In this document: positions 63 to 19,214 of the stretch, piece after piece
Layout: every line of letters starts with the position of its first letter
How positions within the stretch are numbered: the stretch's first letter is position 1
Origin: Seison nebaliae
Taxonomy: Eukaryota
Length of the DNA stretch: 20,000 bases
Assembly: GCA_023231475.1 (NCBI GenBank)
Contig: JALJEE010003013.1
Coordinates: 53,066-73,065, forward strand
Reading direction: 5' to 3'
The notes under the pieces: generated by a model
Told to the model about the DNA's origin: nothing
Database searches by the model: none
What the model saw: only the letters and a program-made list of their open reading frames with translations
Translations under genes and position numbers: made by a program

Positions 63-600
63 TACACTACTGGACTTAAGTTAGTTTTAGCCGAATTTAG
101 TTTTATTGGACAAAGGAGATGAAACAATTTAAAAACTTAAATGAAACACAATTTAGTATGACATCCAGCCTCCGTGCTCCATTTCAAACAGCCTTGATGG
201 CATTGATAATTGATATACAGTTTTCTATTATATTATTATCCATTTTCTCCCACTTTTCTTCAATTTTAGAGAAGAGCTTGTCGGTGGTTCTAAAGGACTC
301 TAATATTTTTGGAATATTGCCCAAACGTCTTCGATTGGATTTAGATGGGGAGGCCGAGCCGGATGGGGAAAAATTTTCATATTTTCTTCTTCCAAATAGG
401 TTAGACTAGCCCTTGATTTGTGAATGGCCGCATTATCCTGCTGGAAAGTGAATTTATTTTCGTAGAAGGTACGACAATCGTTTACAAAATGTTCGTGCAG
501 CATTTTGATTTAATTTTCGCTGTTCATCATTTCTTTTATTAGGATAATTTTTCATTTATAGCCGCCTCCAATGTCGCCCCAAATCATTAGTGATTTTTTA
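63..600 (-). mobile_element. Decayed, one-end-truncated Tc1-family (DD34E) DNA transposon: transposase C-terminal half plus one putative terminus
   Basis: Minus strand reads SLMIWGDIGGGYK*KIILIKEMMNSEN*IKML...FTFQQDNAAIH...HPARPPHLNPIEDVW, with exactly 34 residues between D (QQDN) and E (NPIE). After a frameshift it continues WEKMDNNIIEN...SMPSRLFEMEHGGWMSY* (stop 153-155), like the Tc1 SMPRR...GG.TKY end. In-frame stops are present. TA at 63-64 followed by CACTACTGGAC resembles a TA target plus TIR start; no partner TIR seen. Confidence 0.88.
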
Positions 601-1175: not shown

Positions 1176-2874
1176 ATATCGTTGTTCAAATAAATTTGAA
1201 TATGCCTGTTTGGGTGCAAATAAGAAGTATGATAGTTACACAATTACAGCAACGCTAATCATTACGGGAACCAGTCAGGCGACGATTAGTTGCTCAGCTT
1301 ATGAAAACTTAATTGTTTATATAATTGATTATTAACTTTCATTATTCTCTAATAGCTTATATGTAAAATTATGGAGAATGCCAAAACCATCGTTGTCAAA
1401 CCGGAATTTCAACGAGGAATACCAATCACAATTTATAGGTTGATTTTTCAAGATGAAACTGAAATAAAGGAATTTTTTTGTTTTTCCAATTAATTGAAAT
1501 ATTAGTGGAGAAAGAGCAGAAACACCGATGGAGTTCTCTACACCAGAAGATGAAAAAAAGGTCAGTTTGGTTATCGGAGTAGATGTAAAACATTCATGGG
1601 ACAAACGTCTAGTATATAATTACTACATAACTCCAGTTTAAATTTTTGAACTTCAATTCACAAAAACTAATTTCTTTACATGAACCAGACTGGACAGACG
1701 TTTCGTCAGTATCGCAAGAAAATGGAGGAAAAGTTAAATTTTATGAAAAATTTGTGTATTTTAATATAATTGAGTCGTTTTCTAGACGCTCAAAGCATCA
1801 CTTGGATATAAACTCCAAAGCACATAGTTATCCGAATTTTTTAAAGAAAACTAAACGATTAATGCTATCTCCCGCCTCAACACTAATTCCAATCAATTTA
1901 GATATACACATGATATATGACGTGTTTTTGAATGGTTCCTTAATCACGTCAGAGGAATCAACTTCTCTCATTTACACAGAAGTTCCATTTTGATCAAAAT
2001 ATTAATGAAAGGAACTCTTCGTTTAAACAGATAAAAGCAGCCATATTTCATTCCTTAAAATTCTTAGGCGGTAAAATATTCAAATCGATCAATTCCGTTA
2101 CCGTGACCGGACGAACAATTTATTCGGTAAAGAATAGTATGAAAGTTTATTTTGAAGCACGATTCGCAACACAACTATGCAATTTCAATCAAAAATTTCT
2201 TGAACCTCATGATAAAGAAAAGTCACACGTTATACTCACTACTAAAGCTTATGATAAATTGTCAATTGATCTCCCACAAACTTTGAGACGATCAATGTTT
2301 GTTCATAAATTAAGTTTTCTTTTCCATTTAAGCTTGTTAATGTTAACAAATTTCCATATCTCAGTAATCTTTGATTTCCTGTTAAGACCTCTGAGAAATT
2401 CAGATTTCGATGCAGGAGAACGTCGGACGGCGAAGAATTCATCAAACCATAATATTAAAATTTACATTCTAATTTTGATCATCCTTATGCTAGTAGCACT
2501 CTATATCTATAAAGATCAAACTGAAACATTTGTTAAAAAATTCATATTTTCAAGTTACAAGTTTAAACTCGTCAACTTCCAAATGAATAAGTTCGCTTTT
2601 TTTGTACTCTTTTTAGGAAATTCTAATCCGAAGTCTAAAGAATCTTCATTCCTCTTCAACAGTTTCTATTTAATTCGACATTTTGCCACTTCTATATTTT
2701 TCAGATTCTTCGAAAAATAATCTTTTTCTAAAAGATAAGAGAGGTTCAAAATCAACAGGTAGTTCTGGAAGCATACATATATCTCACCCAAACGCCAAAT
2801 ATCGATCATCATCATTACCTCCTCTTACATCTACACCTTCCTCTGGTTCCCATCGTCAATCAACGCTAACGTGA
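1176..2874 (+). CDS. Multi-exon gene for an unknown single-pass membrane protein (C-terminal TM, Ser/Pro-rich tail); 5' end unresolved
   Basis: Frame-restoring GT-AG introns at 1315-1355, 1439-1505, 1636-1688, 1733-1785, 1982-2030 and 2662-2704 join ORFs 1099, 1646, 2103 and 2683 into one frame. Optional in-frame introns at 1827-1901 and 2554-2616. TM-like IYILILIILMLVALYIY at about 2460-2510; stop TGA 2872-2874. No family recognised. Confidence 0.65.
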
Positions 2875-3086
2875 TACTAACATTTATCTTGTAAGATGCC
2901 TTAAAAGATTTTTTGGAAATTTATATTAAGAAACTGACAATTGACAAAGTTCATGTCGATTTCGTTTCTGAATATTTTTTTATTATATATAAAATTAAAT
3001 TGAAAATTGTTATACTAATAGACATGAATTAGGTTCAATTGAAAATTTTATTTCGATTTTATAATTTCCTAAAAAATTATTTCCTC

Positions 3087-5982
3087 ATGAATTTTTATTA
3101 TTTTCTTATATCAACTCTTGTTATCACGTTGGAGGCTTCTAAGAATAGATTAGGTGTTTATTACTCGTCTAATATTCCTCCTTGTTTTTACTGCGAGGGT
3201 GACACAATTGAAGATCTCAATTTCACATCAACATCCGAGTTGATTTGTAGGGACGAGAGTTCTAATTTAACGGTGAGTTCATTTGTCATTAACCAATACT
3301 TAATTATGTTTGGTAGCTTAGCTATGTATCACCAGAATCAAAGCCCCTTTGCTCCTATGACGAAGTTGAAAATTTTCCATCCCGCTCTGTGGTAAGAGTT
3401 TTCAAATTAACGTTAGTTCATCCTTCTTATTCAGATTTCAACCGAAATCAGATTTGATATGTACCGAAAAAAATTGGATTAAGTTTTTAGATTTTGAATT
3501 TATACTTTAACTGTTCTCAATTCGGATAGTCTTATAATTTATCTTATTTCAGTCATTTCTTCTTTTATTTCAAAATTTAAATTTTGATGAATATTGAAAA
3601 TAAATCTTGTTTGATTGTTTTTAGGAAAGAGCAACCAGTAATTCCCAAATTTACAAAAGATTATGAAGTTTTAGCGATTCTAGATCCGGAAAAATTATTG
3701 AAAACATTCGATGATGTACATTTAGTTATCACTTATACAGTTAAATTTTATAGAATTATTATGATTGATTTTTATTCATCAAATTATACAGCCAAATAAG
3801 AAGCAAGTAAAAATTGTTTCTCCTGAAGATTTTGCTCAATTGTCCGATTCTTCCCCTTCTGAACGGCCGACGATACGAACATTGCTCTCAACCACAACAT
3901 TGGAATCAACCACAGCATTAGAACTAACAACAACATTAGATCCAACAACTAAATTAAACCCAACAACTAAATTGGATACAACGATAAAATTGACTAGAAA
4001 ACGGTCAACAATTGTAACGATGGAGAAAGAGTGGAAAAAAAATAAAATGCCGATTCTCAATAATCCTATAATAAGTAAATCATTAGGTAATTCAAATGAG
4101 AAAAATGTGAAACCTCGATGGAAACATAAGAATGAATCAAGCCTAAACGAAAAAGTGAAAGATGAAGGATTGTCAATAAACGATATCTTGAAGATGGGAA
4201 GATTTAATTTTTCAGCGGAAAATGATATTTTCATACTGATCACCCAAAGTTCAGTTTTGACTTTGAGTAATGCTTATGTGAAAAATACTTGGATCACGAA
4301 TAGCGTTACAAATTTATTTTGTTTTTCAATAATAATGTAAAGTAATATAGATAAGAAATACGATTCGGAAATTAATGTGGAATTTAATAAGAGATCTACC
4401 TAAAAAGCATATCGAGGTGGCTATAGGTACATTAGGACAAAATATTAATAAGAAATTTGAGATCGATATACATTTCAGCATAAGAACGAGAAGATCGAGA
4501 CTATCAAGTCAGTATCCGGATATATTTCATACAAAACATCAGCTCGAAAGATTAATGAATGCAAAAAATTTTACGGATGTATATCAAAGGAGTTTAAGGT
4601 CATCAATAGCTTTAGAGTCGATAGGTTCCATATCCACCTTTCATAAATTTGTTTATTAAAAATATGTTCATTAATTAGCCCTTAAACCAGCTGTGGCGAT
4701 GGCATGGACTGTTAGAATTAAAAATACGGAACATCAAATTTTTCCCATTCATAAATGGTTTATAGTTGGTTGTTGTGCTCTAATGGGACTACTCATGGCA
4801 ATCATGCTAAGTTACCGATATAGGCATCAGATAAGAATGAAATGGCTTAAAACGAGGAAAGAAGTGAAAAAGATGTTTAAACGACGAAAATGGAGTGTAT
4901 TAGCGAAACAATCTGCAAACACTCCAGATATCTCTAAGTTTAATAGACGTACAACTGGTAGCGATCCAAAGAATTTCACAGAAGTTGACGAAGCAGAATT
5001 TGAAGAGTACGGAAAATTCTTCGGACCTTTCGGACATCGAGGTTCTTTTTCATTCAAAATATTTAAGTTTATTCTTATTTTAGTTAATTTCGCACGCAAT
5101 CGATATTATGATATACCTGAAAGTACTGTTGGATCTACAGAACTCTCAGTCTTATATTCGGGATCGGACAGAACTGGTAGAACAAGAGACAGAAATCGAC
5201 TTTCTAGAAACAAGTCCAAAGAATCCATCAAACACAAAGTATCAACATCGAAATCTAAGGCAGATGCTCGTAAATCGAAAATAGAAATGGAACCTAGAAC
5301 GGAAACTCGTAGAGCAAGGTCAGAACCGGTTGTTGAGATAGTAAGACCAAGGGGAGAATCATCGAGACCGAGAGGAGAATCATCTAGACAGAGAGTAGAA
5401 AGCAGACCCGAAACATCCAGATCTAGAGCGGATGCCTCCAGATACAGAGTTGAGTCTTCGAAATCTCGCGAAGATACTCGATCAAGAGTTGAACCTTCAA
5501 AATCGAAAGTAGAAACTTCCAAGTCGAAGTTAGAACAATCAGGATCGAAAGTAGAAAGATCAAAATCCCGGGTTGAAACATCAAAAACAAAAGTAGAACC
5601 TTCCAGATCAAGAGTCGAAGCGGGCAGATCTCGAACGGAACAATCTAAAACAAAACTGGAAGGATCTAAATCGAGAGTTGAAAAATCAAGATCACGAGTC
5701 GAACCGGCTAGATCGAGGACGGAAGGAAGAATTGATCAATCGAGGTCGAGAACGGAGGGAAGAGTAGATCAATCGAGATCGAGGACAGAAGGAAGAGTTG
5801 ATCAGTCGAAATCACGGACAGAATATAGACCTGAAAGAAAAGTGGAACCATCGAAATCAAGAGATATATCACTGAAGGGACAAAACAAAAACAAAGTTAT
5901 TTTCTCCGCCCCACAAAATGAGTCATCCACCCGAATGGATTCGAATAAACAAGGGTCTTCCAGATCTAGAACAAGACATTAA
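3087..5982 (+). CDS. Type I membrane protein: signal peptide, Cys-containing N-terminus, Thr-rich mucin-like stalk, TM helix, long Arg/Ser/Glu/Lys repeat cytoplasmic tail
   Basis: ATG 3087 begins MNFYYFLISTLVITLEA (signal-peptide-like). Introns 3277-3321 (in-frame, optional), 3365-3434, 3483-3624, 3740-3791, 4305-4350, 4625-4678 and 5042-5083 (in-frame, optional) link ORFs 3039, 3584, 3765, 4375 and 4693 without stops. TM WFIVGCCALMGLLMAIMLSY (about 4756-4815) is followed by basic RYRHQIRMKWLKTRK. Confidence 0.72.
3885..3992 (+). repeat. Coding 18-nt tandem repeat (LxxTTx, about 6 units)
   Basis: ttggaatcaaccacagca/ttagaactaacaacaaca/ttagatccaacaactaaa/ttaaacccaacaactaaa/ttggatacaacgataaaa = LESTTA LELTTT LDPTTK LNPTTK LDTTIK. 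Confidence 0.85.
5344..5817 (+). repeat. Coding tandem repeats: 21-nt (7-aa, VExS[KR]S[RK]) array, then three 33-nt (11-aa, TEGRVDQSRSR) units
   Basis: VEPSKSK VETSKSK LEQSGSK VERSKSR VETSKTK VEPSRSR VEAGRSR TEQSKTK LEGSKSR VEKSRSR VEPARSR, then 5719-5817 TEGRIDQSRSR TEGRVDQSRSR TEGRVDQSKSR. Confidence 0.9.
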
Positions 5983-6234
5983 CAATAACTTTATTAATTA
6001 ACTTCATAATTTTTTCAAAAAAATTAATTTTGAATAGAAGAATTTCAAATATTTCTTTCAGCGTATACATCTCATGTGAGTCTCAACTATTATCGACAAT
6101 TTCTATTATTGTACAATTTCTATTATAATTCGAAGAATATTATTGTTTTTTGTTTTAATTATTTCTAATTCAAATTTTTATTATTCACTTTATAAAAATT
6201 TTCTCTAAATTATTTCAAGTAAGATTTTAATTAA

Positions 6235-6815
6235 TTAATTTTAATTATTATTTATTGAAGTACAATCCCAATTAGGGTAAAAGAAAAAAAAAGAAATAAA
6301 TTATAAAAGATTAATAAGATCACCAAAATAATTTTTTAGACCGACAAAATTATTATTGTTGATTAGCTCACGGCCAAGTGAAATACTAGAGACAAGATCA
6401 CCCGGTATGTACTCATCCAACTTGAAGTTGTGTAGCATACCCCTGGCATCAGAGAGAGATGATGGATACGATAAATTATAATATGAACAAAAATAACGGA
6501 GAGGAGTGTTAAATTTCTCACATTGCGAGAATTCCGGGAAGGGAAACGGAGAGGTCAATATAGTTTCCGATAGCGAGAGATAACGATCAAGCATAATAAC
6601 CGGAAAGGGAGATAGTTCCACAATAGAAAACATGAAAGCCCTGCAAAACGGTCTAGGACGGCCCAGTAAGATACGAATGCACCGGTTATAAGCCTTATCC
6701 AAGGAGCCCATGGACTTATTAGAGATACCAAGAGACGCTTGAAGTCCATAGAACCCACAATAGAACGTGACGAAAAGTTTCATCTTCAATTTCACTGGAT
6801 AAAATTTACATTTAT
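6235..6815 (-). mobile_element. 5'-truncated non-LTR retrotransposon (post-RT C-terminal region, RTEX-like) with 3' AATAAA and TAA/TTAA tail
   Basis: ORF 6301-6795 KLKMKLFVTFYCGFYG...LDKAYNRCIRILLGRPR...AFMF matches the recalled LINE post-RT motif K..LF..YC..YG..W....L..AYN...R.LLG.PR.....MF. Intronless and GC-richer than flanks. On the minus strand the stop is followed by a T-rich stretch, then AATAAATAATAATTAAAATTAATTAATT. Clade assignment is tentative. Confidence 0.75.
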
Positions 6816-7384
6816 GATTTAATAATTAAAATAATTATTCAATTTAATTAAAGCAACTTTTAATTTTTTGAAGATAACATCTCTAAGGTAATTAGATTAG
6901 ACGCTTAACCTGAAAATTGAAAGTTTACATCTTTTAGAGATTTTATTATTCTCCGGTTCTTTCTTTAGCAGAATAAATGAAGAATAACTTCAGATATTGA
7001 TATTGAATTATTCTTAGAATTGTAACTATTATATGAAATGTTATGATCGATAAGAAATGTGCACGAAAAATATTCACGGAACTTCATAGTAGAAGGATAC
7101 GAAATTAGAAGGTTAAAGCAAAGAGAAGTGTATGATTAGAAGAGATTATTATGATGAAAAAAGACGTGTAGTGATAGAAGAGCTATAAAATAATGAATGA
7201 GAGAGAAAGAATTAAGAAATTTAAGCTGAATTATCATTCGGAAGATATTGAACATTCTGAATAATTGTCTCGTACCAGAGTCTTGTTACTAGATTGACGT
7301 AAGAGGAAAATAAATAAGAATATAAACAATCAAAGCCTTCATCAAAAAGCAGCAAAAAAACTTATATAATATTCGAGAGAGAAA

Positions 7385-10300
7385 ATGAGAAATATCCGTG
7401 GTGATACAATGCGAGGCTTGTCCGTTTTCATTTCAGACATTCGCAATTGTCGAAGTCGTGAAGCTGAAACGAGAAGAATTTTAAGAGAATTGGCAAATAT
7501 ACGATCGAAGTTTCGTGGTGATCGTGCACTGGATGGATATCAAAAAAAGAAATATGTTTGTAAACTAATTTTCATTTTCCTTCATGGATATGACATCGAT
7601 TTCGGTTATAATGAGGCGGTCAATCTTTTGTCTTCCAATAAATATTCAGAGAAGCAAATTGGCTACCTCTTCATTTCGATTTTAGTGAGTGCCGAGAATG
7701 ATTTGATGCGACTAATCATGCAGAATATCAGAAATGATCTTCAATCTCGCAATCCCATATTCGTTCAATTGGCATTGCAATGTATAGCGAATATGAATGA
7801 TAATCCGGAAATCGTTGAGATGGTAGGACAAGAAATACCAAAATTATTAATTTCTGGTGAATCCATTGACTCGATTAAACAAAGTGCAGCATTATGTTTA
7901 TTGAAATTAGTGAGATTACAACCAAATTTGATCGATCACGATTATGCTCCACGAATTATTCATTTATTAAACGATCAACATATCGGTGTAGTAACGGCAG
8001 CAACTGGTCTATTAGTCCAATTGTGTAAACAATTTCCAGAAGAATATAAGGGATGTGTATCATTGACAGTATCTCGTTTGTCACGTATCATTACCACATC
8101 ATATAAAGATTTACAGGATTATACTTATTATTTCATTCCTGCACCGTGGTTAGCTGTGAAATTGTTGCAAATCCTTCAATGTTATCAACCGTCAGAAGAT
8201 GCTGGAATTAGAAGTCGTTTAAATGAATGTTTGGATACGTTGTTGAAGAGAGTGGTGGATAATCCACGAACGAAAAAAACTCAACATTCCAATGCGAAGA
8301 ATGCTGTTCTATTTGAAGCGATTCTTCTTATTATTCATTTGGATAATGAACCGGAATTATTGATTCGTGCTTGTAATCAATTAGGCGTATTTCTCACTAG
8401 TCGAGAAGTGAATTTACGTTATCTGGCATTAGAATATATGTGTCTATTAGCAACTAGTGAGTTCGCTCATGAAGCTGTAAAGAGACATGATGAAACGGTT
8501 TGTGCTGCACTTCGAACAGAGAGAGATATTAGTGTTCGTCAGAAAGCTGTCGATCTTCTTTATGCGATGTGTGATCAAACGAATACGGAACAAATAGTTG
8601 AACAAATGTTATCTTATCTACAAGCGAGTGCAGCCGATTATTCGATCAGAGAAGAAATGGTATTGAAAGTAGCAATACTAGCAGAGAAATATGCCATAAA
8701 TACCAATTGGTATTTAGACGTCATGTTAAGACTGATTAGATTAGCGGGCGATTTTGTAAGTGAAGAAGTTTGGCAACGTGTCATCCATATCGTAACGAAT
8801 CGTCAAGAAGTACAAGGATATGCAGCAAAGACGGTATTCGAAGCATTGCAAGCACCAGCTTGTCATGAAAATATGGTGAAAGTTGGCGGTTATATTTTGG
8901 GAGAATTTGGGAATTATATTGCTGGTGATCCACGTTCATCACCCGAAGTCTTACTACAAATTCTTCATTCTAAATTTCCATTCTGTACTTTGTCCACGCG
9001 CTACATTCTATTAACGGCATATGTGAAATTTGCCAATTTATTTCCGGAAATGAGATCGAAAATTCTGGAAATTCTCCATTTGGATATGAACATCAGATCA
9101 GCTGATATCGAAATGCAGCAACGTGTATCCGAATATCATCAACTGATAAAGACGAGTTCTGATGATGAATTGGCTTACGTATTTGAGAATATGCCGTCAT
9201 ATCCAGAGAGAGAATCATCAATTCTTTTAAAATTGAAACAGAAGAAACAATTGACAAATGTCGATCATCCTTCTAATGGGAATGTCGATAAGAAGAATGA
9301 TGTCGTCTCATCATCAACTGCTCCTTTCAAAAATGATTTGTTAACTAATAAATCGAATACTTTATTAGAGAAAGCTAAAGTAGAATCTATCACTAATAAT
9401 TTATCTGGTCTCTTAATTGATGATTTAAATATGAATGATTCCTCTCAACCATCATCCAACGGAAACATTATCGATTCGTCCATCAACAACAAACCATTAT
9501 CCAACCAACCAATTCAACAACAACAACAACAACAACAACCAACAGCATCAATACCTAATAATAAAATAGAAACAAATTTGAATGATATTTTTGGTCTTGG
9601 ATCTACATCGACTGATGTACCATCATCCATCGTATCATCATCAATTTCGCCATTTGTCAACAATAACGAAATCGATATTCCGTCAAATGATAATTTGAAA
9701 AAAGCAATCATGAGACATTTGGAAGGTTTTGCAATAACCGAAGATAATTGTCGCATCGACATCACATGTGAAACGAAGAAGAATTTCTGTAAATTACAAA
9801 TAACTTTCTCTAATTCTGTTCCATCCTCCTTTGTCATGATTGACTCTTCGGATATCAATGTTCCAAAATTACAATTATTACAAAATAATTTATCATCCTT
9901 CACTGAACCGAAAGCATTAATCTTTACGGGACAATGTTCCCAAGTATTTCGCACTATCGACAATGCTTCATCCTTACCTGTCATCGACTTTAAGTTTTCT
10001 TCCTTTAAACATTTCATTTTTCTTCAATTCATTCTAGATTTGGTGAGAAAACTTACCATATGACATGTCCATTATTTCTCAATTATTTCGCTAGTGATTC
10101 ACCAATGGAAAAATCCGTATTCCAACAACGATGGACTTATTTAGCATCGTTATTCTTTATTTTCTTCTTTTACATAAAATTCAACATTCTCCTCAACTTT
10201 TTTTTCAATTGATTTTTACAATTTTTCATTCTGCATTTTTCTCTTCCTTTTTAGAAATGGGAAAATGACATCTAAAATATTCGAAGTCTCTTGGACATAT

Positions 10301-10653
10301 GAACCATCGATGAATAATATAATCGATTCGAAAGTTTCTTAAGATATTAATCTTTTTTCCTAATTCTTCTGTCATCTAGTTAATCGGAATGGGATTTGCA
10401 ATAATTGGAAAATCAGAACCGAATCAACTAGAATGGAATGGAGGTCTCATCGTCAATGTCAGTAGTCAAATGAAAGGTGTCTTGCACAAACTACGATATA
10501 ATCAAACAACACAAGTTATATTTTGTATTGAGAAATAATTAATTAAATCGGAAAATTTGTAAATAGATGTGGCAAACGGAAATCTTATCAACTCAACAAG
10601 ATGTTGCTGATGAAATTGCTTCATTGGTTGTCGCGAATATTTCTCATAATTAA
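7385..10653 (+). CDS. AP2A: AP-2 complex subunit alpha (alpha-adaptin), 1006 aa; exons 7385-9993, 10038-10148, 10255-10333, 10380-10514, 10567-10653
   Basis: Diagnostic N-terminus [14 protein letters not shown]...ELANIRSKF...[13 protein letters not shown] and trunk motifs [41 protein letters not shown]. Four introns restore the appendage platform domain (FQQRW...SKLIGMG...QMW...*), collinear with human FFQRW...AKIIGFG...QMYRL. Confidence 0.97.
9515..9538 (+). repeat. (CAA)8 polyglutamine tract in the alpha-adaptin hinge
   Basis: Eight perfect CAA units in frame within the low-complexity N/S/Q linker. Confidence 0.95.
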
Positions 10654-10821
10654 AAAGATTTTTAATGATTTCATTATTTATATTATTAGTCAACGAATTT
10701 ATTCAAAATTTTATTTCCATTCTAAATTTTCGGTCAATCGTTGAAGCTTTTCCTGTCTCTCCACATCATTTCATTCTCTCTTTCGATATTATTCGTGTTG
10801 TCAGTCATCATTAAAATTCCA

Positions 10822-12201
10822 TTAATCGTTCTCTTTATTAGTGCTACTTTCGGTAAAGCCTGAAAAATTATTTTAATGAAAATTTAATTTCATAATTAAA
10901 CAACTCACTTGTCGGTTTAATATCACCGTCTTCTTCTTCTTCAGAATAAACCGTCGTCAACCTTCTACTGACAATTTCTTTGAAAATTTTCTTTCCCATT
11001 TTTTTCATCAACTTTATATTATTCGGTTCCTTACAACATTTTAATCATGAATTTAAATAAGTTTAAAATAATTTAAAAAATAACTGCTGTGATCAATTCA
11101 TTTTGAACGGAAGAGATTTGCTCTCGAATTTCTTGTAAAGTAAAATAATCTAATATCTCCTCATCTGTTACTGTATCAGATTCAGTTTGAGTTGACAGAT
11201 CATCATCACCAAGTTCTAGATTCTATATTTATTTGAAGTTTTGACGAATTCAGAAAAATTAACATCATTTTGTATCTGTTCGTAGCTATTTATACTTGAT
11301 GCGTAACTGATTTCATGTTCTTTGTCCGTTTGTGACAAATCAACAATTGGTTGAGCTTCTCTTAACGGTTGTAATGGTTCAATAGCGTCGTTCAAATATA
11401 ACTTTTATGAAATAAATAAAGAATTTTTTTATAAGAAGTTATACCTTCTTTATCATCACATTTGTTCTTGGTGGTTTTGAGAAACTATGAGAGATTAATC
11501 CATATTGATCTAAAATACTAAATCGAACTATTATTCCAATCAAGTAAATATTTATAGAAAACCATTCTTTGCAGAATGTAATTACATCTTCTTTGTCAGT
11601 TAGAGTGAACACATCTTCAAGTTTATTAAGAATATTTTGTAATTCTTTCAATAAATCACATAATTCAACCAACTCTAACAAAACAGAAAAATTAGGTACT
11701 TTCAAAAATCTAAAACAAACCTCTTATTTTCGCGATAAGAAAAGTACAAATGGCATGGGCATATTTCATTTTTTCACAGAACTCTTCACTGAAGGGAACA
11801 TCACTAAATTTTTTTTCGTCGAGGAAGTACCAAAATAAGTAAGCACATAATTCCGAATAATAAGAAGCCATATGAATCGGTGTTGTCAATTGACTAACAG
11901 CAGTATTTTCATTTCCATAAGTATGAATCATAGAGAAATAGCTTAAAGAGTGATTGATCTCATTACCATTTCAAATTCTCAAAAAGAAAGTTAACTGAAA
12001 AACTTGAGATATAGACAAGTTTTTTACTTCAGGTGTATCAAAATGTAATGAATTTCCATCTCCGTCAATAACCAATCTTTTTAAACTGGCAAAATGAGTT
12101 TCGGTTAAACTTCCGTAAGTGGAAAGAAATTCATCCTTCCACTGAACTTCAGTAGCTTCGTCAGTTTTTGTCGTTTTATTTGAATCGTCCTGCGATTTCA
12201 T
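10822..12201 (-). CDS. Seven-exon gene of unknown function (helical N-terminal half, acidic C-terminal half)
   Basis: ATG 12201 (MKSQDD...). Introns 11942-11995, 11675-11720, 11402-11444, 11223-11263, 11030-11084 and 10860-10908 (or 10860-10904) join ORFs 11971, 11710, 11439 and short downstream exons (LYLNDAIEP, NLELGDDDL, EPNNIKL) in one frame. Confidence 0.7.
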
Positions 12202-12586
12202 GATAATTGATTTAATCTTCACTATGCCAGTTATAATATTAATTATCTATGGATTACGGTTACTTAGTAACAAGAAATAAAAATTTGGCGGAAATGGAAT
12301 ATTTTATTTGCTTCTCTTAATTTTTGAATTAAAAGCCTTATATTTATCGATCATCCATATGTGTTAATATCATTATTCTGTTAAATAAATATTTATATAG
12401 TTTCTATATTTAAGCAATTAACACTATTAATTAGAGTTATTAAACAAATTAATTTAAAAAATTAAAAGAATAAATCTTCAATTAAATTATCAGTTTAAAT
12501 GTTAAGCTTTTATCCGTCATCTATCGAGAAATAGATATAATAGTCAACAAATCCATATATTCTCCTCCAAATTTTTATTCATTAAA
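12202..12586. promoter_or_regulatory. Putative 385-bp bidirectional promoter between head-to-head genes
   Basis: Divergent ATGs at 12201 (-) and 12587 (+); very AT-rich; contains TTTGGCGGAAA (E2F-like) near 12283-12293. Motif function is unproven. Confidence 0.45.
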
Positions 12587-13645
12587 ATGGAAATGATATC
12601 GTTTAACACTGACCATGGATACCTGGAAGGATTATTACGTGGTTTCCGTTCCGGTATTCTTACGACGAATGATTACTTAAATTTGACTTCATGTAATTCG
12701 TTGGATGATTTAAAATCGGTTTTACAAGCGAAAGATTATGGTCAATTCCTTGCAAATGAGAGTAGTGTTTTAACAGTCGCCCTAATCGATGAAAGATTGA
12801 GAGATAAATTAGTCATCGAATTTCAACATATTCGAAGTCAGGCAGTTTCGCCATTAAGTAAATTTTTAGATTACATCACATATGGTTATATGATTGATAA
12901 TATTATTCTGCTGATTACGGGAACTCTTCATCATCGATCATTGAATGAATTATTAAATAAATGTCATCCATTGGGTAGTTTCGAACAAATGAAAGCTATT
13001 CAAGTTGCATCAACATCAGCTGAATTATATAATGCGATTATTGTCGATACACCTTTGGCACCATATTTCCAGGATTGTGTTTCAGAACATGATTTGGATG
13101 AATTGAATGTGGAAGTTATTCGGAACACTTTATATCGTGCTTATCTTGAAGACTTTCATGCTTTCTGCAAATCACTTGGTGGTTCTACAGCCAATGTGAT
13201 GTGTGAATTATTGGCATTCGAAGCAGATCGACGTGCCTTCCTTTTAACTATCAATTCATTCGGCACAGAATTAACTAAAGATGATCGTTCAAAACTCTAT
13301 CCGAAATGTGGGAAATTACATCCGGAAGGATTGGCTAAATTGGCGAATGCTGACGATTATGAACAAGTTCATCGTATAGCTGAAATGTATGATGATTATC
13401 GGAAAATTTTCGATGAAGCAGATACTGGACTTACTGGTCATTCGGGAGAGAGAAGTGTTGAAGATCGTTTCTTCGAGAAGGAAGTTCATCTCAATAAACT
13501 CTCTTTTCTCCAACAATTTCATTTCGGCATATTTTACAGTTATGTCAAATTGAGAGAGCAGGAATGTCGGAATATCATTTGGATAGCGGAATGTGTGGCT
13601 CAACAACATCGTACTAAAATCGATGCATATATTCCAACATTCTAA
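12587..13645 (+). CDS. ATP6V0D1: V-type proton ATPase V0 subunit d, 352 aa, intronless
   Basis: Full-length match to family motifs [82 protein letters not shown]. Confidence 0.98.
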
Positions 13646-13742
13646 AAATATTTATTATAAACTACAATTAATTTTATGTCTATTCTCCTTTTCAATTTAA
13701 ATTATTATCGATTTCATTCTTGTTTTTGATGATTTCCATTTG

Positions 13743-13764
13743 TCATCATCATCATCATCATCAT
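13743..13764. repeat. (TCA)7 microsatellite between convergent 3' ends
   Basis: tcatcatcatcatcatcatcat read directly. Confidence 0.9.
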
Positions 13765-13900
13765 CTAGTCTCTAATTCAATTTCTATTTATTTCCAAAAC
13801 AAATTTTAATAATCGTCTTTCAAACATTTTATTTTACATTATCTATTCACTATTCACTATTCAGATTAATTGATTCATTTCTTTCAATAAGAAATGATAA

Positions 13901-15728
13901 TTACAATGGCATATTCGAATGTTTCTTGTTTGGTAGTTTCTCTTCTTTTCTTATTAAACGTTCCAATTCATTACACAATCGAAATCTTGTCATTTTTGGT
14001 TGAATGATATCGTCAGTATATCCTCTTGTTGCTGCCGGAAATGGATTAGCAAATTTCTCGATATATTCCGCTTCATTCTTCTCTACATCTTTTCCACGAA
14101 AAATAATTTTAATGGCTCCCTAAATACAAGTTATTTATTAAAATATTAAGTTGAATTAGAAATAACTTGAGCTCCCATTACAGCCACTTCTGCTGATGGC
14201 CATGCAAGATTAACATCAGCTAATAAATGTTTCGAACTCATAACATCGTATGCTCCTCCATATGCCTTTCGAGTAATAACTGTCATCTAAATGTAACTGT
14301 TATATAATTTAGTTAAATGAGATTTAGAGAAAACTTTTGGGACAGTCGCTTCAGCAAAAGCATAAAGTAATTTTGCACCATTTCTAATAATTCCTCCATA
14401 TTCTTGTGCAGTTCCAGGTAAGAATCCTGGAACATCAACTAATGTTAATAAAGGAATATTGAATGAATCACAAAAGCGGACAAATCTTGCTGCTTTCACT
14501 GACGCATTTATATCAAGACAACCAGCAGCAACTTTCGGTTGATTAGCTACTACTCCGACGGTATAACCATTTAATCTGGTGAAACCGATGATAATGTTTT
14601 TCGCATATTCAGGCATCAATTCAAAAAATTGTCTATTATCTCCTAATTCCAAAATGATTTCTTTCATATCATATGCTTGTGATGAGTCTAAAGGAATCAT
14701 GGAATCTAACGATTTCACTATTCTATCTTTCGGATCATTATTCTTTTGTTTCATATAATCATTCTTTCGATTCGACAATGGTAAATAATTAAAGAAAATT
14801 CTTAATTGATGAAGAGCGTCAACATCATTCTCGAAAGAATTGGTAGCACATCCCGATATTTTCGTATGAGTATCAGCTCCACCCAATTCTTCTTGTGTCA
14901 CTTTCTCACCAGTCACCGATTCCACTACATCAGGTCCAGTAATAAAAAGAAAAGATGAGTCCTTTGAACATTAAATTTCATTTTGAATATTTTAAAAATT
15001 TCAACTTTTATCATAAATGTAAAATCAGTGAGAGCAGGAGAATACACCGCTCCACCAGCACATGGTCCCATAATAATAGAAAGTTGTGGAATAACACCAG
15101 AAAATCGAGCATTTCTCTATTATGAGAGGAGAGTTTATTGAAAAGTTTAAAAGAAGAAAAATCCAAACTAGAAAAATATCAGCGTAACCGGCTAATGAAT
15201 CGACACCTTCTTGTATTCGAGCACCACCAGAATCATTAATTCCAATCAATGGAATTCCACTTTTGGCAGCATAATCCATTATTTTACATATTTTTGCAGC
15301 ATGTACTTTCGAGAGACTACCTCCGAATACAGTGAAATCTTGACTGAATAAAGCTACTGGACGACCAAATATATTTCCATAACCAGTGACCACACTATCT
15401 GAAGGAAACTTAAAAGAAATTCATTCGAAGAAATTTCTTTAAGGAATTTAAGAACTTTTTGTTTCTCTAATCCAAAATGAGTGCAATCATGTTCTACAAA
15501 CATATCCGTTTCGGTGAAAGAATTTCTGTCTAACAACAACGATATTCTCTCTCGAGCTGACAATTTTCCCTTTTCATGCTGCTTGTTAATTCGATGTTGT
15601 CCACCACCTAATTGTGCCTTCTCTCGACGTTCATTAATCTTCGTTCTGACATTCAACGAATTTTGAGCGGCAGCTGATATAGTTGAAGTACGAACGAAAG
15701 ATTTATTAAAAATCAATTTTGATAACAT
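13901..15728 (-). CDS. PCCB: Propionyl-CoA carboxylase beta chain, mitochondrial, 529 aa; exons 15728-15456, 15408-15169, 15116-15006, 14961-14335, 14286-14167, 14119-13901
   Basis: Motifs [85 protein letters not shown]. Five phase-0 GT-AG introns (47, 52, 44, 48, 47 nt) give a collinear protein. The N-terminus resembles a mitochondrial presequence. Confidence 0.98.
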
Positions 15729-15901
15729 CTCTTCAACAATCTATAATTGATCGTTCAATTAACAGCAGTCAAATAATTTATTTTAAAGATTATATAATAA
15801 TCGAAAGATTTGATGTAAGATTAAGCCTTTTTCTTTAACACAATTTATTATTCTTTTATATTCATCGAAAGTCATCAGTTTAATTTTGTAATATCTTTAT
15901 T

Positions 15902-18900
15902 TCATTCATCGCCATTGAACTTTCCGATAGTTTTATTCTTAACCAATTGATAATACTCATAAAATTTCATTTTTTCTGTCACATGGTTAATTTTTTCAAA
16001 TAGCAAATGATTCTTATTTTTTGCATCAGTCGGGAAGAGAAATAATGAATAAAACCCAGAACTTTTGAATGCAAACTGATTACGAGTGGTGGGACGGTAG
16101 ACAATGGAGAATATCATCTGAAAAATAAAATACTAATTTTAACAAGAATTTTTTAAATTGGATAAGTTAAACAATACCATTGTCTGGTTTTCATATGAAT
16201 TAATTTATTTTTCGATGTTCTGCTGTTCGACTAACCAGAAAAGAAGAAAAACGATGTTTTACAAGTCAGAAGATTAGGTTTTTGATTTTAACTGATTAAA
16301 TTTCGTACGGAAGCTTTGTACGATTAATGTTCGGTGGTTGTCGTATGGAAATTCGTTACCTACACTGAGTGCAAACTAGGTTGTGCACCGAGAGCAGCGC
16401 AATTGGCACGAGTATTCTGATCGATTTTCTTGAATGGAAATCCATCCATATAGGAAGAGATATTTGAACATTATCGATTCGGTGCAAAATTTGATCTCAC
16501 AGAGCCTACTTTCGTACAGTGCGAAACCGAAAATTCTCCAATCAAATTTTTCTGCAGTTATTACTCTTTAAGTTCTCGTGAATCGTATGGTGACGCGTCT
16601 TCGATGCTGTCAAATTTCTCTATTGATTCTTATATACTGAAGAATCAGTTGGTATCTGGTAAGAATCTCATTATCAATAACTCCTCCAAAGAGTTATCTT
16701 CTTTTCTATATAATTTGCTCCGTGGGGATTTTATTTATTAATAAAAAAAAATTAAAAAAATTAGTGTCAGAAGTAACAAATTACGTCAGCCTGAACCAAT
16801 CGAGTTTCTATTAAAATAAGATAAGATAATTTAACGAAAACCACATAAAATAAAAACCTTCATTTGTGGGAATTTCGGAAAATGAAGTCATTGTCTGGTT
16901 GATCCAATTACTGTAATCCATTGTATTAGAGAAACTTTCATCATGTAGTTCTTTTTCATTACCACTTTCCAAATAGAATTCAACTCTCTTTTTCTTATTT
17001 TTGTCGAAGACGTGAAACATAACTGATCGGTTTCTAAACAAATGGAATTAAACAAAATAATGGGAAAAGGAAACTTCGCTTGTTCCGATGACGATTTCAT
17101 CGATCCTTTCATTAAATACTCTTCTTGAAAAATTGCATCTTTCTGTTGAATGAGAGAAATTTTTGCTGAATGTAAAGTAGTAGCAATTTGTTTCTTTAAA
17201 TCTGGTGAAATTTCAGATTGGTCGATCAATGACATAATTTTCAAATCGATCATTGTTCTTGTGAGAATATTAATTTGTCGAATAATTTTTATCATGTTGT
17301 TGGAATGTTTATGACCGTGTATTTTCGCCAACGACTGCTCATCATATAAACCAACTGAGGAAAAATAATTGTCGATAGATAAATATTTATCTGTCTTCTT
17401 TGTATCTTCAAGCAATTGTTGAAAATTATATTTTAATAAATTTTGTAGGTTTTTTCCCGTTAATCTCATCTGGATCTTCGTTGCTTCCTTAGTCATATTC
17501 AGAACAAATAATTCCAATGTTAATGTAATGGACAAAGTCAATGAAATTGTGTTACTATATTTGTATTCGTCGAGAATGAGGACCCAATATTTCACTGGAT
17601 GATGTGTTAATAATTCGTCTAGGAACTGTTTGGCAAATCCTTTCTTATTTCCAGTGTCAATCAATTGGTCTAAAATCCATTCAATTGTTAAATTGATGAG
17701 TGGTGGGTGATGAATCTCTAAAAATAGGATAATTTGACGATCTGAACATTTTGAAAGGAAGAATATGAACTTTTCATAATTTCACATATTCTCAAAACAA
17801 TCTCATCGGAATTTAAGGGAATTTTCAAAAATTCTAATAATGAAATGAATAACAATCAACATTTAAATTTCATCAACCTTTTGTTATATCATCGATATTA
17901 GTGAGAGGAGCATTTTCAACCAAATCTTTTGGAAGTCCAAATAAAATTTTGAATAAATTCTAGTGAGAACAAATTAATTTATTTATATCGTATATTTATA
18001 TTAATTATACAACTATTATAAACCTGTACGTATTTCCCATCGGAATCATATCGATAATTATTGTAATCATTCAAAAATAATAAATTCCCCAAATTTATTT
18101 TTATATCATAAAATATTTCATCCGAATATTTTCCATCAAATAAATTGTGAGTTAATAACTCCAAGTTCTCTTCCACTTTATCTTGATAGAAAATTTTGTA
18201 ATGTGAGTCCAGTTCAATTTTTCTAATGAGAAAATTTTCTTTAATTCCCGTCGTCCAACCTTTCTAAAATAAGTGTTATGATATTAATAGAAATAATATG
18301 AATAAACGAACATGTATTTGAAGAAATTTAATTTTGAGAGTTTTTGCAAATGAATTGAAAATATCGAAATAATTCGAACTTGAAGGCACTAAATATAATA
18401 AAAGAAGTTAAATAATTTTATTTAAAAAATTTACCGTTCATAAATAATCTTACCGAATTCTCCCATTTCGCCTCTCCGTCTTTGTTTTGGAAAAATTTGG
18501 TTATATTCAAAAATTTCTTCAAAAAGAGAATGATTTTAAACAAAATATTTTTATAAAATTTCGAACCTCGTTTGTTGACCGATTCATGGAAAGAAATAAC
18601 ATGGAAAAACCACCATATCGGGCCGATAAATTATTAAAAATTTTTTTCCCATTTGCTGTAACAGCAAATTCTACAATGTCAGAAATTATCGATCTATTTT
18701 ACGCCAAAAACAATTATGGGAAGAAAAATAAAAATTATTAATAAAAAAGATGAAATTATTAAAGATCGGAGAAATAACGGAATAAATATTGGATTAATTG
18801 GATCTTCGTTATCATTTATTGGTTGATCTGAAATATTCTCCGTAGTCTGAGGAGGAACTTGATTTGCATAAGTCTAAAGAAATTATTAAAAGAAATAGAT

Positions 18901-19214
18901 TGTAAAATTAAAACTATCAAAGGCGATCCCTTTAATTCCGTAACTGATTGATTGACATATTCAATTTCAATTGAATCTTCAGATAAATCGTTTTGTAGAA
19001 AACGTTGTTCATTCTTCAAATCATTCGTTTTGGAAAAGAGGAATTGATTTCCCTTCAAATATTTAACCATAATCTTTGTTGAATGACTGAATTTTTCAGG
19101 ATTTATGTTATCTCTCACAAAAATATTTTCATTAGAATAATTGAATTTGATAAAGGAAAGATTATTTACCATTAATTCTTGAAGATTCTTAACGACATCG
19201 TCTGGGAATTTCAT
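15902..19214 (-). CDS. Large multi-exon gene of unknown function; both ends uncertain
   Basis: Introns 18874-18914, 18694-18778, 18517-18566, 18389-18453, 18264-18307, 17960-18023, 17834-17877, 17718-17770, 17034-17074 and 16808-16857 join ORFs 18816, 17979, 16888 and 16811 into one stop-free frame. A longer intron (about 16231-16784) holds a retroelement. Exons below 16230 and above 19214 are not resolved. Confidence 0.65.
16290..16762 (+). mobile_element. Second, decayed 3' fragment of the same non-LTR retrotransposon family, antisense within an intron
   Basis: Stop-free frame 16454-16741 encodes QCETENSPIKFFCSYYSLSSRESYGDASSMLSNFSIDSYI, aligning with QCEKFNTPLRYFCSYYNLSYPSSLSDARGMLHNFKLDEYI of ORF 6301-6795. 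Upstream frameshifted pieces YGSFVRLMFG and KRYLNI resemble YNRCIRILLG and DRYLSL. Ends in AATAAAAAAAAATTAAAAAAA. Confidence 0.75.

What the first reader, a model, noticed from the sequence alone, without database searches (positions are those of the whole stretch)
1315..18914. The (A)|GTT rule assembles the fragmented ORF track into four more genes; a minority G|GTA class coexists
Seen: 24 further frame-restoring introns in the four unknown genes start with GTT, for 33 in total (-1 base A 20, G 7, C 4, T 2; +5 G in only 3). Only two clearly non-GTT donors were needed, AAG|GTATAA (11444) and TCG|GTAAGA (18453), both with -1 G. Two more are ambiguous (10908/10904 and 16784/16796). Inference: a dominant derived GTT class and a residual canonical class, possibly read by different U1 variants. 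Caveat: donors in genes without homologues were picked by hand, so this tally is partly circular.
Basis: partly seen in the sequence, partly recalled or inferred. Interest (0 to 1): 0.72.

Follow-up and report, generated by a model that had tools for sequence, protein, structure and literature searches.

The report
GTT-starting introns in Seison nebaliae
In this stretch of the genome of the tiny marine animal Seison nebaliae nearly all of the short introns begin with GTT instead of the GTA or GTG that other animals use, which likely means that its splicing machinery reads intron starts in a changed way.

Summary
The window is from the rotifer Seison nebaliae: two NCBI proteins named for that species map residue for residue onto it. 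The core observation holds. These are 5 in propionyl-CoA carboxylase beta checked against bacterial homologues, 4 frame-forced in AP-2 alpha and 17 in the two NCBI models. That is p = 8e-5 against the 51% T content of introns; +4 and +5 show no T excess. A set of 24 GTT introns in the four unknown genes, 33 in all, can be rebuilt. Only 14 of the 24 have outside support. The 10 in the two genes at 1.4-6 kb stay hand-picked, and a blind rule cannot tell them from background. Non-GTT donors exist: GTATAA at 11444, GTAAAT at 18434 (not 18453 as stated) and GTGAGT at 10908. Three donors are too few to define a class, and the link to G at -1 is not significant (p = 0.22). No RNA reads, genome or U1 gene could be reached, so the two-U1 idea is untested. 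The scan noted GTT-type donors before in protists, not in this genome or any animal. I found no paper on it.

The parts
1371..2874 (+). Unknown gene 1: predicted CDS of about 430 aa, no family
   Evidence: Open spliced models. No Pfam hit on its ORFs. No annotated protein retrieved. Model rests on frame logic only.
1439..1505 (+). Intron, TAG|GTTGAT, 67 nt (gene 1)
   Evidence: Shortest frame-restoring GT-AG; no outside support.
1585..1785 (+). Ambiguous zone of gene 1: one intron 1585-1636 (GTAAAA), or two introns 1612-1688 (GTATAT) and 1733-1785 (GTTAAA)
   Evidence: Both give an open frame; candidates listed.
1982..2030 (+). Intron, GAA|GTTCCA, 49 nt (gene 1)
   Evidence: Shortest frame-restoring GT-AG; GTG and GTC rivals are 9-15 nt longer.
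2662..2704 (+). Intron, ACA|GTTTCT, 43 nt (gene 1)
   Evidence: Only candidate within 18 nt of the shortest.
3087..5982 (+). Unknown gene 2: predicted membrane protein of about 840 aa with an Ser/Arg/Lys-rich repeat tail
   Evidence: Open spliced model. No Pfam hit. Only low-complexity hits among 1.84 billion representatives, none identical.
3365..3434 (+). Ambiguous intron of gene 2: 3365-3416 (GAA|GTTGAA, 52 nt) or 3389-3434 (TCT|GTGGTA, 46 nt)
   Evidence: Both restore the frame; the GTG one is shorter.
3483..3624 (+). Intron, TAA|GTTTTT, 142 nt (gene 2)
   Evidence: Only candidate.
3740..3791 (+). Intron, ACA|GTTAAA, 52 nt (gene 2)
   Evidence: Shortest candidate.
4305..4350 (+). Intron, AGC|GTTACA, 46 nt (gene 2)
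   Evidence: Shortest candidate; a GTA rival 4337-4391 is 9 nt longer.
4625..4678 (+). Intron, TAG|GTTCCA, 54 nt (gene 2)
   Evidence: Shortest candidate.
5042..5083 (+). Possible in-frame intron, GAG|GTTCTT...TTTTAG, 42 nt (gene 2)
   Evidence: Intron-like composition; the frame is open with or without it. Not needed, not verified.
7385..10653 (+). AP-2 alpha adaptin gene (calibration) with four GTT introns: 9994-10037, 10149-10254, 10334-10379, 10515-10566
   Evidence: Adaptin_N E = 8e-137 on exon 1. Introns are frame-forced. The tail exons gave no hit on their own.
10822..12201 (-). Unknown gene 3 = NCBI SNEBB_007916, 348 aa
   Evidence: P0002 maps exactly onto the window; no family.
11942..11995 (-). 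Intron, TCA|GTTAAC, 54 nt
   Evidence: NCBI model; blind parse agrees.
11675..11720 (-). Intron, GAG|GTTTGT, 46 nt
11518..11562 (-). Intron, ATG|GTTTTC, 45 nt, in frame and open if retained
   Evidence: NCBI model only.
11402..11444 (-). Non-GTT intron, AAG|GTATAA, 43 nt
   Evidence: NCBI model, blind parse and shortest-intron rule agree.
11223..11263 (-). Intron, GAT|GTTAAT, 41 nt
11030..11084 (-). Intron, GCA|GTTATT, 55 nt
10860..10908 (-). Non-GTT intron, CAA|GTGAGT, 49 nt
   Evidence: NCBI model; GTT rivals at 10904 and 10901 need other acceptors.
13901..15728 (-). Propionyl-CoA carboxylase beta gene (calibration) with five A|GTT introns: 15409-15455, 15117-15168, 14962-15005, 14287-14334, 14120-14166
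   Evidence: Spliced model aligns without gaps across all five junctions with 8 bacterial PccB proteins.
16767..19070 (-). Unknown gene 4 = NCBI SNEBB_007919, 593 aa (the ORF is open up to an ATG at 19214)
   Evidence: P0001 maps exactly; no family.
18874..18914 (-). Intron, ATA|GTTTTA, 41 nt
18694..18778 (-). Intron, TCC|GTTATT, 85 nt
18517..18566 (-). Intron, GAG|GTTCGA, 50 nt
18389..18434 (-).
   Evidence: Only frame-compatible GT-AG pair; NCBI model.
18264..18311 (-). Intron, CAT|GTTCGT, 48 nt
17960..18023 (-). Intron, CAG|GTTTAT, 64 nt
17834..17877 (-). Intron, AAG|GTTGAT, 44 nt
17718..17770 (-). Intron, AAA|GTTCAT, 53 nt
17034..17074 (-). Intron, GAA|GTTTCC, 41 nt
16808..16857 (-). Intron, AAG|GTTTTT, 50 nt
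   Evidence: NCBI model only.

Best explanation
The introns of this Seison nebaliae locus are short GT-AG introns that begin GTT in 23 of 26 outside-supported cases, and this is likely a lineage-wide change of the preferred third intron base from A/G to U, read by a single spliceosome that is predicted to carry a U1 snRNA altered opposite that base, with the few GTA/GTG starts as tolerated variants. Shown: the introns are 41-106 nt long (median 47.5). They are 51% T and 6% G. They end TAG in 19 of 26 cases. The donor carries information only at -2 (A in 18 of 26), -1 (A 14, G 8), GT and +3 (T 23). There is no +4A or +5G preference; +5 is G in 5 of 26. Inferred: such donors match the recalled canonical U1 5' end (ACUUACCU) at little more than G+1 and U+2, so something that contacts +3 must differ. 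By analogy with Entamoeba, I take a base change in U1 opposite +3 as the most likely step. The G-poor, U-rich make-up of the very short introns would supply the rest of the definition. The four unknown genes are ordinary spliced genes of this organism. Two of them are already modelled at NCBI.
For: Species and gene models. Five of 5 PCCB junctions are verified by gap-free alignment to 8 bacterial homologues, and all five are A|GTT. Four of 4 AP-2 alpha tail introns are GTT. Fourteen of 17 introns of the two NCBI models are GTT. The effect is position-specific: +3 T is 23 of 26, while +4 and +5 T are 11 of 26 each; p = 7.7e-5 against intron T content. Donors compared with the other 351 GT sites of the same four genes (36% GTT) give Fisher p = 1e-7. 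Matches to the canonical 9-mer CAG|GTAAGT number 2-7 per donor and are mostly 3-5. Precedent for U1 changing together with a +3/+4 U donor: Entamoeba preprint 10.1101/2022.06.08.495308 (abstract and passages read).
Against: No RNA evidence could be obtained. No RNA run was listed, and the four runs laid are DNA contigs that run through the introns. No U1 gene could be looked at, so the key mechanistic step is pure inference. The sample is one 20-kb window. How the NCBI models were made is unknown to me; a self-trained predictor could reinforce a GTT preference. Only 5 junctions are checked by homology. Unlike Entamoeba, nothing beyond +3 is conserved, so a changed U1 would gain only one base pair. 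That fits a U1-poor recognition mode at least as well.
Confidence: 0.45

Rival explanations
1. U1 is canonical and pairs only weakly. The donor has shrunk to GU plus context, as in other small-intron parasites. U at +3 is then favoured by a later or different reader. One candidate is a G-U wobble with the U6 ACAGA box. Another is proteins that bind the U-rich stretch just inside the intron. The short, G-poor introns would be recognised as whole units.
For: There is no conservation at +4 to +6, so even an adapted U1 gains little. A second T peak at +9 (21 of 26, p = 0.002 before correction for 12 positions) and a general T-rich, G-poor make-up suggest a U-tract signal. Reduced 'GTa' donors are described for myxozoans and Dicyema (PMC13644364, passages). 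The Entamoeba preprint notes that U at +3/+4 can extend pairing with U6 ACAGA.
Against: The reduced donors described in other animals keep A at +3, not U. A pure loss of constraint in an AT-rich genome should give A and T alike, yet +3 A is 2 of 26. No U6, U1 or protein data are available here.
Confidence: 0.3
2. One reading: two donor classes, A|GTT and G|GTR, each read by its own U1 paralogue.
For: Three of 26 donors have a purine at +3, and two of these have G at -1. GTGAGT at 10908 is a full canonical match at 7 of 9 positions.
Against: The -1 G link is not significant: 2 of 3 against 9 of 33, p = 0.22. One of the three has A at -1. Three introns cannot define a class. A minority of mismatched donors is normal for any spliceosome. 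No U1 copy was seen.
Confidence: 0.12
3. Artefact: the GTT excess only reflects T-rich introns plus hand-picking by the reader and by a gene predictor.
For: GTT makes up 42-58% of all GT sites in the four unknown genes. A blind shortest-intron rule picks GTT in 5 of its 8 wrong calls. For the two unannotated genes, 7 of 8 GTT is not significant against 0.6 (p = 0.11).
Against: The five homology-checked and four frame-forced introns are 9 of 9 GTT. The whole outside-supported set is 23 of 26, p = 1.6e-3 even against 0.6. Neighbouring positions +4 and +5 show no T excess.
Confidence: 0.06

Closest known systems
Entamoeba transformed 5' splice sites GUUUGU(U) with a co-evolved U1 snRNA (Roy and Bowser, bioRxiv 10.1101/2022.06.08.495308; abstract and passages read)
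   Same: U instead of a purine at +3 in nearly all introns; AT-rich short introns; GT-AG kept.
   Different: Entamoeba has a strict hexamer (88-90% GUUUGU) in an intron-poor protist, and a U1 shown to match it. Here only GUU is kept (GTTTGT in 1 of 26). The genes are intron-dense (10 introns in a 1,782-nt CDS). The organism is an animal. U1 was not seen.
Reduced 'GTa' donors of myxozoans and Dicyema japonicum (Mol Biol Evol 2026, PMC13644364; passages read)
   Same: A host-associated animal with very short introns and a donor motif shrunk to about three bases.
   Different: Those keep A at +3 and have introns near 22-30 nt. Here +3 is T in 23 of 26 (A in 2), and the shortest intron is 41 nt.
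Shifted-register donors GTT(A/T)AGT or GTTNNGT
   Same: The intron begins GTT.
   Different: The displaced GT/AGT that defines the shifted register is absent: 0 of 26 donors match GTT[AGT]AGT and 0 of 26 match GTTNNGT.
GTT(T) donors noted by this scan in Bonamia ostreae contigs (e1-9738631, e1-9758096; AI notes, not checked by me)
   Same: GTT start with little further consensus, in a host-associated organism.
   Different: A protist with 19-32-nt introns and T at +4 in most. Here +4 T is 11 of 26.

Membership tests
Major (U2-type) GT-AG spliceosomal introns | GT at the 5' end and AG at the 3' end | tested here: met
   26 of 26.
Major (U2-type) GT-AG spliceosomal introns | Donor consensus with purine at +3 and G at +5 (animal agGTaagt) | tested here: not met
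   Purine at +3 in 3 of 26; G at +5 in 5 of 26; A at +4 in 9 of 26.
Major (U2-type) GT-AG spliceosomal introns | Pyrimidine at acceptor -3 and a T-rich 3' part | tested here: met
   -3 is T 19, C 1, A 6 of 26; introns are 51% T.
Major (U2-type) GT-AG spliceosomal introns | Removal seen in RNA | not testable with these tools
   No RNA run listed; the laid runs are DNA contigs.
Minor (U12-type) introns | Donor [AG]TATCC | tested here: not met
   0 of 26.
Entamoeba-type transformed donor with co-evolved U1 | Near-universal U at +3 | tested here: met
   23 of 26.
Entamoeba-type transformed donor with co-evolved U1 | Strict extended motif GUUUGU | tested here: not met
   1 of 26.
Entamoeba-type transformed donor with co-evolved U1 | Intron-poor genome | tested here: not met
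   In this window: 5 introns in a 1,590-nt CDS, 7 in 1,047 nt and 10 in 1,782 nt. Two genes or exons are intron-free.
Entamoeba-type transformed donor with co-evolved U1 | U1 5' end complementary to the changed donor | not testable with these tools
   No genome held; no snRNA in the window.
Shifted-register (+1) donors | GTT followed by the displaced consensus (GTT[AGT]AGT or GTTNNGT) | tested here: not met
   0 of 26 for either pattern.
Reduced 'GTa' donors of ultra-short animal introns | No information beyond +3 | tested here: met
   +4 to +8 do not depart from intron composition.
Reduced 'GTa' donors of ultra-short animal introns | A at +3 and introns under 30 nt | tested here: not met
   A at +3 in 2 of 26; lengths 41-106 nt.

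The most novel reading that the evidence does not exclude
Seison nebaliae is an animal whose major spliceosome has been re-tuned genome-wide to (A/G)|GUU intron starts, with a U1 snRNA rewritten opposite +3. It would be the first such case in Metazoa and the first in an intron-dense genome. That would show that the donor code can be changed across thousands of introns without prior intron loss.
Probability: 0.35. Interest if true: 0.8.

Novelty: new variant of a known kind. Interest (0 to 1): 0.6.

Why it matters
The base after GT at intron starts is a purine in almost all eukaryotes because it pairs with U1. The known exceptions in print are intron-poor protists, which fed the idea that the splice code can only drift once few introns are left. 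An intron-dense animal with about 90% GTT donors would test that idea directly. It would also give a natural system for asking what reads +3: U1, U6 or proteins. Donor models for Seison, and perhaps for its acanthocephalan relatives, need retraining.

Tried and rejected
RNA evidence: no RNA holder was listed. The first 12,438 bases were then laid with 4 runs. All four are DNA contigs that run through the proposed introns. The only joints (2929 to 12171, and 6621 to 6788) are unrelated to introns.

Whole genome: none held. Rfam on the window: 0 matches at E up to 1.

Coding-potential gene finder blind to +3 (3-periodic Markov model trained on the three conserved genes): it recovered 6-7 of 9 calibration donors but gave truncated models on the unknown genes. 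I dropped it.

Composition-only intron scan: the intronless controls reached a score of 8.3. Of the 11 hits above that, 7 are GTT and 4 GTA, and several are not real introns. It does not discriminate.

Longest-CDS parse: useful for genes 3 and 4, where it found 15 of 17 annotated donors. It was wrong at 3 of 5 PCCB junctions, and it reads past true stops in three genes (2855 and 2964 in gene 1, 10764 in gene 3, and the AP-2 alpha stop via acceptor 10600).

Shortest-intron rule: 18 of 26 exact.

AP-2 alpha tail exons tested one by one against PDB and Pfam: no usable hit, so those four introns remain unverified by homology.

Annotated proteins for genes 1 and 2: none found at near lengths for gene 1. 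There was no identical hit for gene 2 among the representatives.

Protein Atlas and Pfam on P0001 and P0002: nothing.

Metagenome scan with the V-ATPase d protein, meant to find relatives' introns: the 80 loci are mostly 1-2-kb contigs with an uninterrupted match (best 68% identity), so they say nothing about donors in relatives.

Literature searches on Seison or rotifer donor consensus found no relevant paper. Searches in this scan's own notes found nothing on this genome.


Full report
What the window is. The window is AT-rich (26-40% G+C per kb). A 297-aa exon on the minus strand is 100% identical to an NCBI protein named 'hypothetical protein SNEBB_007919 [Seison nebaliae]' (P0001). A second exon led to SNEBB_007916 (P0002). 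Both proteins map residue for residue onto the window once introns are allowed. The DNA is therefore from the seisonid rotifer Seison nebaliae.

The window holds three conserved genes. AP-2 alpha adaptin lies at 7385-10653 on the plus strand (Adaptin_N E = 8e-137). V-ATPase subunit d lies at 12587-13645 on the plus strand and has no intron (E = 1e-102). Propionyl-CoA carboxylase beta (PCCB) lies at 15728-13901 on the minus strand. The window also holds four genes without any family: 1371-2874 (+), 3087-5982 (+), 12201-10822 (-) and 19070-16767 (-).

Calibration introns. In PCCB the frame can only be kept by five short introns (candidates). The spliced model aligns with eight bacterial PccB proteins without a gap at any of the five junctions, with conserved residues on both sides. 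All five donors are A|GTT. In the AP-2 alpha tail four further introns are needed, and all begin GTT. These four are frame-forced only, because the small tail exons gave no hit by themselves.

The four unknown genes. SNEBB_007916 has seven introns. Five begin GTT (donors at 11995, 11720, 11562, 11263, 11084). One is AAG|GTATAA (11444) and one is CAA|GTGAGT (10908). SNEBB_007919 has ten introns. Nine begin GTT (18914, 18778, 18566, 18311, 18023, 17877, 17770, 17074, 16857) and one is ACG|GTAAAT (18434).

I do not know how these models were made. [quoted passage not shown] A parse of my own that maximises CDS length and ignores +3 found 15 of these 17 donors.

For the other two genes I could retrieve no annotated protein. 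A shortest-frame-restoring-intron rule gives GTT at 7 of 8 junctions. One of them has a shorter GTG solution (3389-3434 against 3365-3416). One further junction of the first gene can be solved with GTA donors at 1585 or 1612. That rule is only 18 of 26 exact on the known introns, and its wrong picks are GTT in 5 of 8. So 7 of 8 is not evidence by itself (p = 0.11 against 0.6).

With the optional in-frame segments 1733-1785 and 5042-5083, a set of exactly 24 GTT introns in the four genes, 33 in all, can be rebuilt. Its -1 base is A 19, G 9, C 3, T 2, and +5 is G in 4.

Is it more than chance? Introns are 51% T. Positions +4 and +5 are T in 11 of 26 each, so the excess is specific to +3 (p = 7.7e-5; 1.6e-3 against 0.6). 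Non-donor GT sites in the same four genes are GTT in 125 of 351 (Fisher p = 1e-7).

Other features:
- Length is 41-106 nt, median 47.5, and 23 of 26 introns are 55 nt or shorter.
- G content is 6%.
- Acceptor -3 is T in 19 and A in 6.
- Position -2 is A in 18.
- Position -1 is A in 14 and G in 8.
- T at +9 occurs in 21 of 26 (p = 0.002 uncorrected). This second peak is unexplained.

The minority donors. Three of 26 donors have a purine at +3. Between those exons the only frame-compatible GT-AG pair is 18434 to 18389, which is also the NCBI choice; it too is a G|GTA donor. At 10908 the NCBI model takes the canonical-looking GTGAGT with A at -1. G at -1 is found in 2 of these 3 and in 9 of 33 GTT donors (p = 0.22). 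The data show that purine donors coexist. They do not show a separate class.

What could not be had. No RNA run was listed. The four runs laid are DNA contigs. No genome is held, and the window has no snRNA gene. Every statement about U1 is therefore inference.

Mechanism. The donors match the canonical animal 9-mer at only 2-7 positions, mostly 3-5. They carry no +4A or +5G. I take as most likely (0.45) that the preference at +3 changed lineage-wide and that U1 changed with it. Entamoeba is the precedent: GUUUGU donors with a U1 end AACAAAC (preprint 10.1101/2022.06.08.495308, abstract and passages). The G-poor, U-rich make-up of the very short introns would add to recognition.

The main rival (0.3) keeps a canonical, weakly pairing U1 and lets U6 or U-tract-binding proteins favour U at +3. 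The absence of any conservation beyond +3 and the +9 T peak fit this rival. The two-U1 idea (0.12) and a pure artefact (0.06) follow.

Comparison with what is known. The introns are GT-AG introns of the major type in their ends and acceptors, but they fail the animal donor consensus. They are not U12-type (0 of 26), not shifted-register donors (0 of 26) and not the strict Entamoeba hexamer (1 of 26). They resemble the reduced 'GTa' donors reported for myxozoans and Dicyema (PMC13644364, passages), but with T in place of A and with longer introns.

My searches found no paper that describes the donor consensus of Seison or of rotifers. The searches were 'Seison nebaliae' + intron; Seison + genome + annotation; rotifer + splice site + U1 snRNA; and rotifer + splice donor + intron + consensus. 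PMC12256650 has no occurrence of 'intron' or 'splic'. Supplements were not read. This scan has noted GTT-type donors before in a foraminifer, an unidentified protist and Bonamia. It has not noted them in this genome or, among those notes, in an animal.

Verdict. The other 10 remain circular. One coordinate (18453) is wrong. The class and two-U1 interpretation is untested and not supported by the counts.

Noticed in passing
window 100-600, minus strand: Remnant of a Tc1/mariner-type transposase. DDE_3 matches at E = 3.7e-8 in 303-509. The reading frame is split over at least two frames (ORFs 509-303 and 405-187), so the element is probably dead.
   Followed up: partly
window 6226-6800: Repeated element. 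Depth in the four DNA runs is 5-8 times that of the flanks, with several variant contigs. It holds a 174-aa ORF (6825-6304, minus strand) without any Pfam hit.
   Followed up: no
position +9 of the 26 outside-supported introns: T at +9 in 21 of 26 introns (28 of 34 with the blind set). This is p = 0.002 uncorrected against intron T content, while +4 to +8 and +10 to +14 are at background. It may be a second signal inside the intron.
   Followed up: partly
window 11518-11562 (minus) and 5042-5083 (plus): Two intron-like GTT...TAG segments of 45 and 42 nt lie in frame and without a stop, so retention would only add 15 or 14 residues. The first is an intron in the NCBI model; the second is unannotated as far as I could see.
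   Followed up: partly
window 19070-19214, minus strand: The NCBI model of SNEBB_007919 starts at the ATG at 19070, but the same frame is open from an ATG at 19214, 48 codons upstream.
   Followed up: no
window 7385-9993 and 12587-13645: Intron density is very uneven. The 2.6-kb first exon of AP-2 alpha and the whole V-ATPase d gene have no intron. The orphan gene SNEBB_007919 has ten introns in 1.8 kb of CDS.
   Followed up: no
window 9546-12438: Three of the four DNA runs have almost no contig laid here at 95% likeness, and all runs show a loose end at 10873. The tool warns that a hole proves nothing. It could be strain divergence or a filter.
   Followed up: no
window 15905-16132 (minus) and 16454-16738 (plus): Two stop-free stretches of 76 and 95 codons lie between PCCB and SNEBB_007919. 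Neither has a family hit, and neither was examined further.
   Followed up: no
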